Origin: Selaginella moellendorffii
Taxonomy: Eukaryota > Plantae > Lycopodiophyta
DNA: 64,000 bases
NCBI RefSeq assembly: GCF_000143415.4
Contig: NW_003314268.1
Location: 3,232,559 to 3,296,558, forward strand
Reading direction: 5' to 3'
Under the pieces are notes generated by a model, which was not told the DNA's origin, searched no databases, and saw nothing but the letters and a program-made list of their open reading frames with translations. Positions 18,249 to 24,931 of the stretch are shown piece after piece. Every line of letters starts with the position of its first letter. Within the stretch, counting starts at the first letter, position 1. Position numbers and translations under genes: made by a program.

Positions 18249-19190
18249 CTAATTGAGCTCTCTAAGCTCGCCATTAGAAAGCTCAAATCTCTTGTGTTTG
18301 GACAAGCTACTGGCAAGTTCTTCATATGTTCCGAGCTTTTCTGAGCTCCTGTAGTCCACTACTGCCTGGAGGATTTGAAGAACATCACCATGGCCAACAA
18401 TCAAAACAGCAGACCTGGAAGTTCAAATTTTTAGCAAAATCACTACACAAAACTTGCGGCAAGGATTTTTTCCTTACCCGTGCGTTTGTCGCTCGATTTC
18501 ATGAATTGCTTTGAGCACTCTCTCGTACACATCCATGACACTTTCACCGCCTTCAGGCCCAACAAAGGGATCCTTTCTATCGTCGTGAGAGTACTGAAAC
18601 AAGAAAAATACATCTATACTTTGAGATAAAACAAAGATAAGTACCTCCAAGCGCGACTTTAGTTCATAGAATGGCCCAAAGTATCGCTCCCTAAGCTCAC
18701 TAAGAACCTGAATGACCAGAAAAGTTTTTATACTTTAAAGTTCAAACAAAATAGGAAAGTGAAAATGATAAAATCTATGACTTACATGAATGCGTGTATT
18801 CTCAAAGCTTGCATCCACCGCTTCCAAAACGCACTCAGATGTTTGGATCGTGCGGCTAAACGGGGAAGAATAGATCCAGACATTGTCTAGACTAAATTTC
18901 TTGAGTTCCTGTCAGGAAGAAAGAATGAAAAAAGGACAACTTAATTCGAGAGCTGATATCCATCATCACCTTGACGAAGATTTTGCCAGCGTTTCTTGCT
19001 TGCACAAGGCCCTGAGGAGCAAGCCCATACCCAGGCAGAACTCCATTAGCCTGGTAAAACCACTAGTGAGAAAATGATAAAGCTTCGAGAGCGAGCGAAC
19101 CTCGTGTGAGACGATTAGATCCAACTCGTTGGGAACGCTTCGTCCATGCCTGAGCACCCAATACTTGTTGTGAAGATCGGGAAGCTCCAT
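18249..19190 (-). CDS. Phosphoglycerate mutase-like histidine phosphatase, copy 1, multi-exon
   Basis: YWVLRHGRSVPN, YSSPFSRT, LRERYFG, GGES, VGHGDVLQIL. Confidence 0.88.
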
Positions 19191-19432
19191 AGCTTTAACA
19201 AAGACGAAGACTTTGCAACAAATCAATGTTAGAAGAGATTATCCAACACGCAAAGACAATGTCTGCCGGCCCTTTGTGCTTGGAATACTCCAAAGGACAT
19301 TTGATTTCTGCCAAAAACAAAAACAGAAAAGATTGTAAGAAAAGAAAGAAAAATGGAAATAAAGCTTGAAGTTTTTATCAAGTGTTTCAATGTTTGTGTG
19401 TGAGAAAAATAAAAATAAAAATAAAAGAATAG

Positions 19433-20559
19433 TCATGCAAGCCGTCTAAGTTCTCCAGTGAGCAGTGCAAACTTTCGATGCTGGGAAAGAATGGAGACGT
19501 ATTCCTCACTGTCCGTTTTGATCCTGCTTACCTCCGCGGCCTTTGTTATAGTTTGAAGGATCTGGAGTGTGTCACCATGACTTACAAGCAATATAGCATA
19601 ACTGCAACAGCAAAAGCTCCATCGAAACTGAATAAAGACTTCATGTTTTGCCTACCCTTCGTGTTGTAACTCGAGCTGAGGAATCACTGCGGCTACTCGC
19701 TTTGCAACATCGGCTACGCTTTCACCACCTTCGGGGCCAACGAGTGGGTTTCGCGCATCGATTTCCCAGATCTCGGCATACTGCCATGGTAAATGGAGCT
19801 TAAAGACAGAGCGAGAAAAAAAAAAACAGCAAACTTTCTACGTGAAGATGAGACTGCAGCTCTAGAGCTGGCCCGAAGTACCTCTCACGCAGCTCGTCCA
19901 AGACCTGAATCAACGAGAGAATTCTTCTTTTGTCTTACAAACAAGGAAATGCAAAGGACTTACTTTGATCTCCAAATTTTCGTATGCACGCTTGAGAACT
20001 TCAGCTACGCAGTTTGCAGTCTCCATGGTCCGCGTGAAGGGAGAAGAGCAAATGGCGACGTTCTTAAAGCTGCCGTGCTCTTCCAGTTGCTACAAAAGTT
20101 TTCTCAGAAGCGTTTTTCTCCTGAGAAGAATCGGTACCTTAAGAAAGATCTCGCCAGCAGCCTTGGCTTGAACGAATCCCCCCTCGGCGAGGCCATGCTG
20201 AGGTAATGTCCCATTGCTCTACAATCAAAATCAATCAAGTTGGAAAGTGAAAATTGGAGAAAATAAAACTATACACCATCGCTAAGTTGAAAGCATGATC
20301 TATGATTTTTTTCGCAATCCAAGTAAGTTTAGATCCATGCCTTGATCTATACTCCAAAGTAACGAGGCAGCGAATTTTTTCTTTTGACCATTTCTTCTCA
20401 CTACCTTGACTTTTTTCTAGATTTTGATAGAATGTAGCAGTGGATCGAGGGAAGTACCTTGTGAGAAACGATGAGACCAATCTCGTTTGGCACGCTTCGA
20501 CCATGGCGAAGAACCCAATAGCAGTTCTTCAAAGGAGGAGGCGAGCGCTCCTCCTCCAT
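19433..20559 (-). CDS. Phosphoglycerate mutase-like histidine phosphatase, copy 2, multi-exon
   Basis: YWVLRHGRSVPNEIG, CSSPFTRT, LRERYFG, PEGGESV, VSHGDTLQIL; matching exon layout to copy 1. Confidence 0.85.
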
Positions 20560-20635
20560 GCTAAAGGAAACCCTCCAATGAGATAAGAAGCGAATATACT
20601 ACTCAAAGAGCTAGGGTTTTTGGCAGGGTTTATCC

Positions 20636-23372
20636 ATGGCGCAGGCGAAGATGGCCATTCTCCTCAAGCCCTGGCTCGGCGGCTCGCCGCCATCGCTCCA
20701 TTCCACTCCGCCCGGTCGAATGGCGAAAACAGGTGCGTTCTTCGATCGATTTGAGCCCGCATTTCGGGATTTCGGTCGCGCATTGGGCTGAATCGAGTGT
20801 GTGTGTGGATTGTTTGGGCAGCATATCCCTATCCCTGGGGTCGCAGGCAGCGGCGATTCTACTCCGGGCCAGCCGCTCGAGCAGTCGAGGGTGGATCGTT
20901 CCAGGCGAAGTGAAATAATTTGTTTTGGCTTTTATTCGTGAAGGATCGATTGATGGTTTTGCTTGTTCCAGGTACGCTGAAGCCTTTCCTGGGTCCGTCA
21001 AAGTAAAAAAAATCCGCCCTCCCGACTATGATCTAAGAACTGGTACACTTTCGTTCTAGTTCTCGAAGTTTGTGTTGTTTTTCCTGGTTTTGCGAGATTC
21101 ATTCGGTCTTGTTCTCCCTTGCAGATGAGCCATGGAAAAAATATCTCGACACCAAACTTAATAACAACATGACCATCGCCGAATTTATTGCAAGGTTTGC
21201 TCAGGGAAAATCCGGCCTAAGAACCTATCGGCACCAGCGAGCTAAGTTGCCATTGCCAGAGGCAAGAGGAAGGCCGCTTCTACAGTGGCAGGGCCTCGAG
21301 AACCGCAAGCCCGAGACACAGAGAATTGAGCAGCTGCTGCGAGAGTCAGAGGACAAGTTCGTGATGGTTTTGGGAGCTCCCGGCTGTGGGAAAACACGGT
21401 GCATGTTTGAGCTTCTCTCCAACGAGTACGGATTCTACTACACGGCGGAGAGCGAAGTTAACCGGGGGTCAGGCGACACAGTCTACTGCCAACGTATGAT
21501 GCAAGTTCTTATGGACGACGTTTACGACGTTCCAAAGCGGGACGTCATAGCCGAGCAACACGCACGCGCGTTGCTGCTGGGAAGAATGCTGGTCCTCGAC
21601 TATATCTTCCGGTTGCGCGTTCCAGGCTTTAATCCTTACATCTTTCTCCAGCTCCAGGTAAGCTAGACTTTGTTGTCTTCGTTGTTTCTGTCTAAGAGCT
21701 TGTTTTTTTGTAGGTGGAAGGACCTCGAATGACTGGGATGGATATCTTCCGAGAGCTCACGGCAGTATTGTGCGGGGAATACGAGAACGACGACATGACC
21801 CGTCAGATTGACAAAGTCTGGGCACACCTCCAGTACGGGGTTCCCAAGCTCAGAGTCGTGCTCGAAGAAGCTCACGTCCTCTTCCATTGCCGGCCCAACG
21901 TTTTCCCTCTGCGAAAGAGCCACCTGGTTCCCATCTCCATTTACTACCCGATGGTGAAGGCAATGCTCTTTCCAAGCGAAACTCTCAAGGGACACGAGCT
22001 GGTGATCTGCGGCTCGGGCCTGGAGATGCTCGAGGACAAGACGAGCCTCCTGGGACCTCTCAAGCAGACTCCAACCGTCAAGTTTGCCGACTTCTCGGTA
22101 TGGGAGAACGAGATGCAACTAAAGGCATACCTGGACACGTTCATGCAAGTCACAGTGGAGGAGTGCCGGGCTCTGCTGTGGACCTGGAGCGGAAGGATGC
22201 GGCCGCTGGTCAACTGCGTCGAGGGGCTTCTCGGTGGCCTGGATCCAAACTCGAAGCCGACGACGTACAAGTCAGTGGAGAACTGCATCCGGGACTACGA
22301 GACTCACGCGCTAGAGAAGATCGATGCGAGGCACACCCACGCCTACGTGCTCAAGGAGATGAGAGTTATCGACAGGACTACTTACGATCTGGTGAGGAAC
22401 GTCTACAGGGCGTTCGCGTGGTGGGGTGACACCTTCCAGGCCATCACGGTGAAAGAGATGAAAATGGTCTACCTCGGCTTCGCTCGCATGCAAACCATTC
22501 CAGTCGACGACCCGGCCACGGGAGAGTGCCTGGCCGCCCCCGGGGTGATGGTCTCGGCACAGATCGACGAGCCGCTCATCGTCAAAGTCCTCCACAAGCA
22601 CTTCAGCGCCGACGCGGAGCTGCTCCAGGAGCTCAGAGTCTCGTCGCTCGTCCAAGGCAAAGGCAGGCTGTGGGAGATGCACCTCTTCGACGACCTGGTG
22701 AAGCTCTTCGATGGCGCCACCCCGCTACACCAGCACGCTCTCTTCAAAGGCGTGGAGCTCCCGGAGATCTTCCAGCAGCCGGCTAGCATCGTCAACGCCG
22801 AGAAGGCGAGCGGCCCCTGGGTCCAGGCCGGAAGCATCAACGCGGGGCTGTTGGAGTTCATGAGCCAGCCGGACGAGTCGAGAGCTCCACTCCTCATCTG
22901 CGAGGGCATGGCCGGCCCCGACGCATTCTTCTTCGTGCGCTTCCGTGACGGGCGAACGATCGGCGCTGGAGTTTACGTGAAGTACAAGCACAGGACGAGA
23001 TCTTACGCGGGGGCGATGCACTGCACGGATCCAGAGGCGGCCTACACGGCCTGGAGGGGCGATCCGCCGAGAAAGGACGCTGGGATCCAGCAGGCCAAGA
23101 GGCAGGCGTTCGAGGAGTTCGTGAGAAGCTCGAGCAGCGTTCCATGGTCGGCTGGATATATCCGGCTCATGCTAACGTACCCGGCGGCGGAGAGCAGTGG
23201 CGAGAACACGAGAGTGGTGTATCCGGCGAGGGGAGGCCCGCAGCTCGTGGTGGAGGTCTCGGAGAAGAACGCGGCGGAGATTTTCGGCGAGGATCATCGC
23301 AAAGTGTTGGACATGACCAAGCCTGTGCGGCTGCTGGATGTTCGTCCAGAGCCGGTTAGAGAGGACTTTTGA
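20636..23372 (+). CDS. Crinkler-type (CR) P-loop NTPase + PD-(D/E)xK restriction-endonuclease-fold protein; the exons before 21125 are tentative
   Basis: Exon 21125-21657 has Walker A GAPGCGKTR followed by FELLSNEYGFYY; 56-bp intron; exon 21714-23372 has Walker B-like VVLEEAH, GRMRP, GRLWE and GPDAFFFV...VYVK. Confidence 0.72.
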
Positions 23373-24931
23373 AGAGTTTTTGTTTATAGAGCATACACCC
23401 AAAACTACAAATCAAACATGAGTGGATCTACTCCCCAGCCCTTGCGATTTGTGACATTCCTAAGATCAAAGCACACAATGAGAATCTCCGCGGCACAACA
23501 GATCGGCAATGCAGCTTCGCAAACCGCCAGGCGAAGAAGACAAACTACCATGGATTCTCCGACCGTAGTGATTTTTACATTGGGGAGTTACGCATCCACT
23601 TCCAAACGGGTTCAAACGAATGAACTTCCTGAATATAAAAGAAAAACAAGAACAAGAACATACCAAGAAGAAATAACTATGTTGGGCGTTAGTAAAGAAA
23701 CATGAAAGATCAGGAATTGTATATATTGTAAGAACAAATTATGTAAGGGACTCCACCTTTTGCTCTGATAATATAAAATTAACAAAAGAATATTGTAGTA
23801 TTTCATTCTCAGTACACTCATTTTGATAAATTTTAACTGAAACGATGGTGAGATGGATCTGAACAAGCTATACATCAGGGATCTCATGCTTGCTCAAAAG
23901 CTTCACTGCAAGCTTAAGATCTTAGATGTGAACAAAGGCTAGAAAACACTCGCTTTATCCCCTTCTCCTGGGATTTGATATTGGAAGTGTATATAATATG
24001 GAGCTGGGCTTGATTGAATCAATTCTATGCCCGTTTTATGGATAATGCCAAGCTCGCAGCATATGCCCAAAGCAGAAACCTGGAATGCGGTGCCTTAACA
24101 CAAAGTGGTCTAGAGGGAATCCCTGCAAGGCTTTCAGAAGATTCATTAACAAGATATAATGTGCTGGAACGTAATGCTTGCCACATATGTGTTTGAGGAA
24201 TCCTGGTGTCATGGTGAGCTTTTAATCTTGGTGAGTTAGACTGGTATGCAAGATCCATCTGAAAGCAAGAAAATCTACATGATTGTAGAAGTAGTCCAGA
24301 GTTGTTGCACAAGTATATGTCCCTCTCACAAGAGAGCTTGTATGGCCCATATCTCAGTGTGTTCTCCTTGTATGCTAATTCACTTGAACAAACCAGAAGC
24401 TTGACTTGTACGATGAAAATCTATTTTGATCAAAGAAGTCAAGCTCAGTGGTTTTCTAAAGTGAAATAACATACCAGTCAGAAGCACTTAAAATAAAGCT
24501 GCATGGCCCATACAAGCTCTCCTGCAATAGAACCCTACTTAAAGAACAGCTTTGGATTACTTCTCCAATTATGTAGACTTTGTTACTTCTATATCCTTGC
24601 AAAATACAACAATCTGGTGGATTGTTTTTAATGGAAAACATTCAGTCTCCTATGTATCTAGTTGGGCGCCAAAGGATTTAAAACATGGCTGCCAAGTAAG
24701 ATTGGATTCCAGGAGCTGGGATTCTACGGCTGTGGATTTCGCTGCTTCAGAGGGACATCGTTGTGATGCAGAACATGCCAGTTTGTCGAGGATATGCTTC
24801 ATGCAGACACGACCAGCATTCAGACCCCAGGAAGTTTGGGCGGCATATTGGAGAGTTTGACATGCAGGCTTCAACACTTTCAGATGAATTTCCCTGCTGA
24901 AAATGAGAAATTATATGCTCTTCATTACTTT

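What the first reader, a model, noticed from the sequence alone, without database searches (positions are those of the whole stretch)
21125..23372. Crinkler-type NTPase + endonuclease effector gene among plant housekeeping genes
Seen: a long intact two-exon ORF (~730 aa) with Walker A GAPGCGKTR-x-FELLS-x-YGFY, Walker B-like VVLEEAH, a GR-x-R motif, and a C-terminal G-x-x-WE helix followed by GPD-hhhh...V-x-x-K. Known: this NTPase + PD-(D/E)xK restriction-endonuclease-fold architecture typifies the Crinkler/CR-toxin family of oomycetes, fungi and protists. It is not part of the typical angiosperm gene set. Inference: this is a candidate toxin or immunity effector of a non-seed plant, possibly of horizontal or transposon origin. 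The expected (D/E/Q)xK reads YVK and Walker B reads EE, so catalysis may be altered (decoy or binding role).
Basis: partly seen in the sequence, partly recalled or inferred. Interest (0 to 1): 0.85.

Follow-up and report, generated by a model that had tools for sequence, protein, structure and literature searches.

The report
Tamed Crinkler-type gene in a spikemoss
This is an intact, spliced spikemoss (Selaginella) gene whose ATPase-plus-nuclease-like core is related to fungal Crinkler-type toxin proteins, but it has altered catalytic residues and a likely organelle-import leader, so it likely works as a tamed DNA-binding protein of the plant rather than as a secreted toxin.

Summary
The motifs are real, but the gene has five exons (20636-23372, 815 aa), not two. 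All four introns are spliced in contigs of four studies, and the product equals Selaginella moellendorffii SELMODRAFT_439683. It has 110 distant relatives (22-40% identity) in a fern, a moss, Selaginella paralogs, fungi and protists; 6 of 53 scanned carry a Crinkler header. The model shows a Cdc6/STAND/TnsC-like AAA+ domain and a C-terminal E...PD...xxK domain of likely restriction-endonuclease fold. CR-type NTPase+REase proteins are already reported in land plants, so the family is known. This copy is the odd one. It departs at 10 of 39 conserved columns (median 2), including Walker B D to E and QxK to YxK, which no aligned relative shows. Its alleles differ at 26 silent and 4 conservative sites. 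It has no Crinkler header or signal peptide; instead it has an acid-free, +8, disordered N-terminus with an RFY|S mitochondrial-type cleavage motif. Best reading: a domesticated, catalytically weakened, probably organelle-imported DNA-binding ATPase. Origin (horizontal or ancestral) is unresolved; targeting and activity are untested.

The parts
20636..20732 (+). Exon 1 (coding, aa 1-32), ATG at 20636
20733..20821 (+). Intron 1, GT-AG, 89 nt
   Evidence: joint in 4 of 4 runs
20822..20909 (+). Exon 2 (aa 33-61)
20636..20862 (+). Putative organelle transit peptide, aa 1-46 (spans intron 1): no acidic residue before aa 55, net charge +8, disordered in the model
   Evidence: targeting itself untested
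20854..20865 (+). R44-F-Y-S47, fits the plant mitochondrial -3R cleavage motif RX(F/Y/L)|(S/A)
   Evidence: motif from PMC4986872
20910..20971 (+). Intron 2, GT-AG, 62 nt
20972..21042 (+). Exon 3 (aa 62-85)
21043..21124 (+). Intron 3, GT-AG, 82 nt
21125..21657 (+). Exon 4 (aa 86-263), start of the AAA+ NTPase
21373..21396 (+). Walker A GAPGCGKT (K175, T176 as in the family)
21658..21713 (+). Intron 4, GT-AG, 56 nt
21714..23372 (+). Exon 5 (aa 264-815 and stop)
21855..21875 (+). Walker B VVLEEAH; family hhhDEAQ (D in 87 of 88 aligned relatives, E in none)
22005..22019 (+). Sensor-1-like ICGSG; family xGTG (T in 73 of 79); the sensor label is inferred
22191..22202 (+). GRMR, the conserved GRxR arginine motif, intact
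22332..22604 (+). Helical / winged-helix-like linker, about aa 470-560 (inferred from the model and the 2qen match, which runs to aa 558)
22650..23315 (+). C-terminal alpha/beta domain of likely PD-(D/E)xK fold, aa 576-797: E584 on the first helix, G664-P-D666, Y684-V-K686 (family QxK: Q in 51 of 59, Y in none)
20458..20559 (-). First coding part and ATG (20559) of the head-to-head histidine-phosphatase-like neighbour, 76 nt from this gene's ATG

Best explanation
This is an expressed, conserved Selaginella gene for a CR (Crinkler/RHS)-type AAA+ NTPase joined to a likely restriction-endonuclease-fold domain, and it likely acts as a domesticated, catalytically weakened DNA-binding protein that is likely imported into mitochondria or both organelles. 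Shown: gene structure, splicing, family, AAA+ fold of the model, residue departures, allele pattern, absence of a Crinkler header. Inferred steps: (1) the basic, acid-free leader directs import and is cut at RFY|S (about 50%); (2) the intact Walker A and GRxR arginines bind ATP and drive assembly on DNA, as the structural relatives Cdc6/Orc1, TnsC and MuB do (about 65%); (3) the changed Walker B and sensor residues slow hydrolysis, and the loss of the metal-ligand position of QxK leaves a domain that holds DNA but cuts weakly or not at all (about 60%); (4) the role is then genome surveillance or organisation, not killing of another organism.
Against: No targeting predictor or localisation data were available. 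The first 16 residues lack arginine and have a low hydrophobic moment (0.12-0.24), unlike typical mitochondrial presequences (PMC8847149). RRQRR could be a nuclear signal instead. The RX(F/L/Y)(S/A) motif also occurs in 3 of 43 relatives. D to E in Walker B is conservative, and E584, D666 and K686 are kept, so both enzymes may still work; some PD-(D/E)xK enzymes move the third ligand elsewhere (recalled). The nuclease fold rests on motif order, secondary structure and Atlas neighbours at TM 0.40-0.44, below the usual 0.5 bar. No ortholog from another Selaginella species was seen, so conservation is known only among alleles. The 12 motif positions were chosen after seeing the alignment.
Confidence: 0.42

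Rival explanations
1. An active plant defence nuclease: the STAND-like ATPase senses or tracks invading DNA and licenses the C-terminal domain to cut it, or to kill the infected cell, in the nucleus or cytosol.
For: Walker A, E315, GRxR, E584, D666 and K686 are intact. The fold is close to NLR and Avs STAND domains. CR proteins of eudicots were proposed to target invasive intracellular DNA (PMC5289972). RRQRR may be a nuclear signal.
Against: The Tyr at the QxK position and Glu at the first Walker B acid occur in none of 59 and 88 aligned relatives. Strong purifying selection and an apparent single copy are unlike arms-race genes. Transcripts were found in each of the four studies laid.
Confidence: 0.25
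2. A non-catalytic scaffold or decoy: the fold is kept for protein binding, for example as an NLR-like switch or as an inhibitor of the active CR paralogs in the same genome.
For: Four motif positions are changed together while the rest is under purifying selection. Paralogs with near-consensus motifs exist in the same species.
Against: No partner is known. The paralogs are only about 21-24% identical. An organelle leader would separate it from them.
Confidence: 0.18
3. A selfish or mobile element, Medea-like or a transposon-borne toxin with an antidote.
For: CR-NTPase+REase pairs occur in mobile elements and in Tribolium Medea1 (PMC11342252). The fold relatives TnsC and MuB are transposition ATPases.
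Against: Four introns, a 5' end shared with a housekeeping gene, no terminal repeats, no second copy in the window, pN/pS about 0.05.
Confidence: 0.08
4. A secreted or translocated toxin against microbes or competitors, like oomycete and fungal Crinklers.
For: 6 of 53 scanned relatives carry the Pfam Crinkler header.
Against: This protein has no Crinkler header, no hydrophobic signal peptide (best 19-residue hydropathy in the first 30 positions 0.35), and its first 81 residues are disordered in the model.
Confidence: 0.05

Closest known systems
CR (Crinkler/RHS-type) NTPase+HTH+REase proteins (Zhang et al. 2016, known here through the review PMC5289972)
   Same: Domain order NTPase, helical/HTH, REase-like; direct sequence relatives with the Pfam Crinkler header PF20147 in Rhizophagus, Entomortierella and Nowakowskiella; CR proteins are reported in land plants.
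   Different: No ubiquitin-like header; a disordered basic leader instead. Walker B and QxK are non-canonical. Apparently single copy under purifying selection. The numbered CR-NTPase/REase clade could not be assigned.
Other non-seed-plant members: Adiantum nelumboides MCO5580659.1, Ceratodon purpureus KAG0564131.1 and KAG0590547.1, S. moellendorffii XP_024537742.1 array and EFJ13016.1
   Same: Same two-domain core (27-29% local identity; motifs).
   Different: They keep DE and Q (the array has QxR); N-termini differ (CCCH finger in the fern, acidic helical leader in the array); none has an acid-free leader.
Cdc6/Orc1, archaeal ATPase 2qen, NB-ARC/STAND (NLRs, Avs3), TnsC and MuB
   Different: 9-14% identity; no TIR, LRR or repeat sensor; a nuclease-like C-terminus instead.
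Tribolium Medea1 and Wolbachia CifB REases
   Same: CR-NTPase+REase architecture (PMC11342252).
   Different: No direct sequence link was tested; no sign of a mobile context here.
AACRNL (Crinkler-like ADP-ribosyltransferase of free-living eukaryotes, PMC12957317, abstract only)
   Same: A Crinkler-type gene in a non-pathogen with a degenerate header.
   Different: Different catalytic domain; it remains an active, multiplying parasite, whereas this copy looks fixed and weakened.

Membership tests
CR-type NTPase+REase proteins | P-loop NTPase of the Cdc6/STAND/transposon-ATPase class (class assignment recalled from Zhang 2016) | tested here: met
CR-type NTPase+REase proteins | C-terminal domain with the PD-(D/E)xK restriction-endonuclease fold | tested here: inconclusive
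   E...PD...QxK conserved in the family on helix/strand/strand elements; Atlas structure neighbours include PDDEXK_13, PDDEXK_2 and PDDEXK_7 clusters but at TM 0.40-0.44; the domain was not folded and searched alone
CR-type NTPase+REase proteins | Sequence homology of the core to header-bearing Crinkler proteins | tested here: met
   P0008 (E 4e-28) and P0016 (E 5e-18) carry PF20147 above cut-off; Atlas Crinkler cluster at cosine 0.91 and TM 0.54
CR-type NTPase+REase proteins | Canonical catalytic residues (Walker B DE; D...(D/E/Q)xK) | tested here: not met
   E314 for D, Y684 for Q; K175, E315, E584, D666, K686 kept
CR-type NTPase+REase proteins | Assignment to a numbered CR-NTPase/CR-REase clade | not testable with these tools
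   Primary paper and its alignments not held
Crinkler (CRN) effectors in the strict sense | N-terminal ubiquitin-like LXLFLAK header (PF20147) | tested here: not met
   No Pfam hit; not scored by a profile of six header-bearing relatives at E up to 10; aa 1-81 disordered
Crinkler (CRN) effectors in the strict sense | Delivery into another organism's cell and nuclear action | not testable with these tools
   No signal peptide by hydropathy; needs experiment
Plant NLR / NB-ARC receptors | NB-ARC at cut-off with TIR/CC and LRR domains | tested here: not met
   NB-ARC E 0.13, 11.9 bits against cut-off 23.5; no TIR or LRR
Organelle-imported proteins | Basic, acid-poor N-terminal presequence with -3R cleavage motif | tested here: inconclusive
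   Length, charge and motif fit; early arginines and amphipathic helix do not

The most novel reading that the evidence does not exclude
A Crinkler-type toxin module has been domesticated in Selaginella by gaining three 5' exons that encode an organelle transit peptide and by blunting both active sites, making it a lineage-specific mitochondrial or plastid DNA-maintenance factor in a genus known for unusually rearranged organelle genomes.
Probability: 0.25. Interest if true: 0.8.

Novelty: new variant of a known kind. Interest (0 to 1): 0.5.

Why it matters
CR-type proteins in plants have been noted by comparative genomics, but what they do in a plant is open. This copy offers a clean test case: one expressed gene, under purifying selection, with the header replaced and both catalytic motifs altered. 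If it is organellar, it would be a toxin-to-housekeeping conversion and a new candidate for the odd organelle DNA maintenance of Selaginella, whose plastomes are listed among the unusually rearranged ones (PMC11354287, passages). If it is nuclear and active, it is a non-NLR STAND-like defence nuclease of non-seed plants.

Tried and rejected
Two-exon model starting at 21125: rejected. Word-index homolog searches found only the allele P0003, with exon 5, with aa 130-560 and with a 20-row alignment; the relatives came from the index-free search. Single-sequence folding gave pLDDT 32 and was not used. PDB sequence searches gave only Walker-A-level or DARPin chance hits; the C-terminal profile gave none. 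Pfam, NCBIfam and PADLOC gave no nuclease or defence family at cut-off. No nuclease appears in the top 50 rows of the structure searches, but the ATPase fills those lists, so this does not test the C-terminal fold. Viral structures: one weak match (E 8e-4, TM 0.21); viral contigs: 0 of 85 pattern matches confirmed. One metagenome locus (L001) did not match either family profile and was dropped. Prokaryotic genomes were not scanned. Four runs of other organisms laid at 80% likeness covered neither this gene nor most neighbours, so they say nothing on orthologs. No run is on record as RNA; RNA status is inferred from splicing. The Atlas label 'DAP3/mitochondrial S29' (26% of one cluster) was treated as a P-loop label, not as evidence of targeting. 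Horizontal transfer from fungi could be neither shown nor excluded. Literature searches for the gene identifiers (no hits for the three alphanumeric ids among the 20 rows listed, number hits were unrelated), Crinkler+Selaginella, Crinkler+fern+moss and Crinkler+transit peptide showed no paper on this gene. Earlier-findings look-ups were empty.

Full report
Observation. The gene model needed correcting. Contigs of four runs from four studies (X1, X2, X5, X10) each skip four GT-AG introns: 20733-20821, 20910-20971, 21043-21124 and 21658-21713. The runs are not on record as RNA; the splicing shows that they are. Five exons from ATG 20636 to TGA 23372 give 815 aa with no internal stop. This equals P0004, Selaginella moellendorffii SELMODRAFT_439683 / XP_002966381.1, letter for letter. 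P0003 on another scaffold differs at 3 residues and is probably the other haplotype (that this assembly holds both haplotypes is recalled).

Context. The gene lies among ordinary plant genes: P450, a histidine-phosphatase-like pair, a strictosidine-synthase-like gene and DUF1681. Its ATG is 76 nt from the ATG of the divergent phosphatase-like gene, and contigs of X1 and X5 run through both 5' ends, which fits a shared promoter with overlapping leaders. There is no second copy in the window and no convincing terminal repeat pair around it. No whole genome was held, so copy number rests on protein clusters: 3 records from 2 scaffolds at 90% identity.

Selection. Of the 40 differences shown (41 in all), 30 fall in this coding sequence: 26 are silent and 4 are Ser/Thr or Ala/Ser swaps; against 563 silent and 1882 replacement sites this gives pN/pS about 0.05. 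These are contig differences from a few accessions, not a population sample, but the gene is plainly kept functional.

Family. The index-free search gave 111 proteins at E up to 0.001: the allele and 110 others at 22-40% identity. I looked up 20 of the 110: 5 plant clusters (fern Adiantum, the best hit at 27% over aa 132-801; two of the moss Ceratodon; two Selaginella paralog clusters), 11 fungal (Rhizophagus, Cetraspora, Jimgerdemannia, Entomortierella, Calcarisporiella, Rhizophlyctis, Nowakowskiella, Lobulomyces), 2 protists (Soliformovum, Endostelium) and 2 unnamed. None of the 20 is a seed plant or an oomycete; 90 were not looked up. Of 53 longer hits scanned, 6 carry the Pfam Crinkler header; others carry SAM, CCCH-finger or CBM20 N-termini. 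The Atlas lists fungal clusters at cosine 0.97-0.98 and a Crinkler cluster at 0.91. The core is therefore a CR-type module with exchangeable headers.

What is unusual about this copy. Among 106 aligned hits (4 of 110 left out of A2), Walker B has D in 87 of 88 rows with a residue and E in none; position 317 has Q in 77 of 85 (H in 4); position 364 has T in 73 of 79 (S in 6); position 684 has Q in 51 of 59 and Y in none. The window protein has E, H, S and Y. It keeps K175, T176, E315, R424, R426, E584, D666 and K686. In a leave-one-out count over 44 full-length rows it departs at 10 of 39 conserved columns, the next rows at 6, the median at 2; at 12 motif positions (chosen after seeing the alignment) it departs at 4, while 36 rows depart at none, 6 at one and 1 at two. 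Whether activity is lost is untested; D to E is mild.

The leader. The three missed exons encode aa 1-85. There is no Crinkler header and no hydrophobic signal peptide. Residues 1-54 hold no acidic residue, the net charge is +8, and R44-F-Y-S47 fits the plant -3R motif RX(F/Y/L)|(S/A) (PMC4986872, passages). A 46-aa presequence matches the Arabidopsis mean of 43 aa; mean charges are +5.6 (mitochondrial), +6.6 (plastid) and +6.9 (dual). Controls: 1.1% of shuffles of aa 2-130 are acid-free over that length; 1 of 43 relatives with a long N-terminus has its first acid beyond residue 40; 3 of 43 have the motif. Against: no arginine in the first 16 residues and a weak amphipathic moment, which suits plastid or dual targeting better (PMC8847149, passages), and RRQRR may be a nuclear signal. 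I put organelle import near 50%.

Origin. In a quick tree of 45 rows and a careful tree of 22 rows the window protein is a long branch (1.45 and 1.75) in no strongly supported group. Two moss proteins and one Selaginella paralog form a 100/100 clade, so at least one plant subfamily is old. Plant and fungal rows interleave weakly, but one plant clade is not rejected (p-AU 0.251). There is no root. Horizontal origin is possible but not shown. Fragments and most unnamed rows were left out of the careful tree.

Mechanism. Most likely the protein is imported into an organelle, binds ATP through the intact P-loop, assembles on DNA like its Cdc6/TnsC/MuB fold relatives, turns over slowly, and uses a blunted nuclease-fold domain to hold rather than cut DNA (whole chain about 0.42). 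Rivals: an active anti-invader nuclease (0.25), a non-catalytic scaffold or decoy (0.18), a selfish element (0.08), a secreted toxin (0.05).

Comparison with what is known. The review PMC5289972 (section 11 and passages) reports from Zhang et al. [quoted passage not shown] The primary paper was not held; its text and supplement may already list this protein and its clade. PMC11342252 (passages) links the architecture to Medea1 and CifB. PMC12957317 (abstract) describes another Crinkler-like gene in non-pathogens. PMC11064341 and PMC6119762 (passages) added nothing on plant copies. My searches found no paper on this gene or on an organelle-targeted CR protein; the library lacks most subscription papers.

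Verdict. A real, expressed gene; a member of the CR-type NTPase+REase superfamily by homology, not a Crinkler effector in the strict sense. The family in plants is known; the combination of a probable transit peptide, blunted motifs and purifying selection makes it a new variant. Interest 0.5; 0.8 if organelle domestication is confirmed (probability about 0.25).

Noticed in passing
window 20458-20732: Head-to-head start codons only 76 nt apart (20559 on minus, 20636 on plus); contigs of two runs pass through both genes, which suggests overlapping 5' leaders from a bidirectional promoter.
   Followed up: partly
window 18249-20559 (minus): The histidine-phosphatase (phosphoglycerate-mutase-like) gene appears as two tandem copies, about 19433-20559 and 18249-19238.
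   Followed up: no
window 24329-24524: Near-concentric inverted repeats (22 nt at 91%, 23 nt at 83%) in the gap downstream of the gene; possibly a small transposon remnant or hairpin.
   Followed up: no
P0011, P0119-P0124: A Selaginella paralog cluster with 6 of 7 members on one 1.84-Mb scaffold, an acidic helical N-terminus and QxR in place of QxK: an expanding array, unlike the window gene.
   Followed up: partly
P0006, P0014, P0021, P0073: The same core carries other headers: CCCH finger (fern), SAM (chytrid and an unnamed hit), CBM20 (Soliformovum).
   Followed up: no
window 22424-22545: All four runs show two expressed variants here at about 55:45 depth, and each differs from the window at one or more sites; shared heterozygosity or a mixed haplotype in the assembly.
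   Followed up: no
window 21714-23372: GC at third codon positions rises from about 0.6 in the 5' part to 0.82-0.86 over codons 401-700.
   Followed up: no
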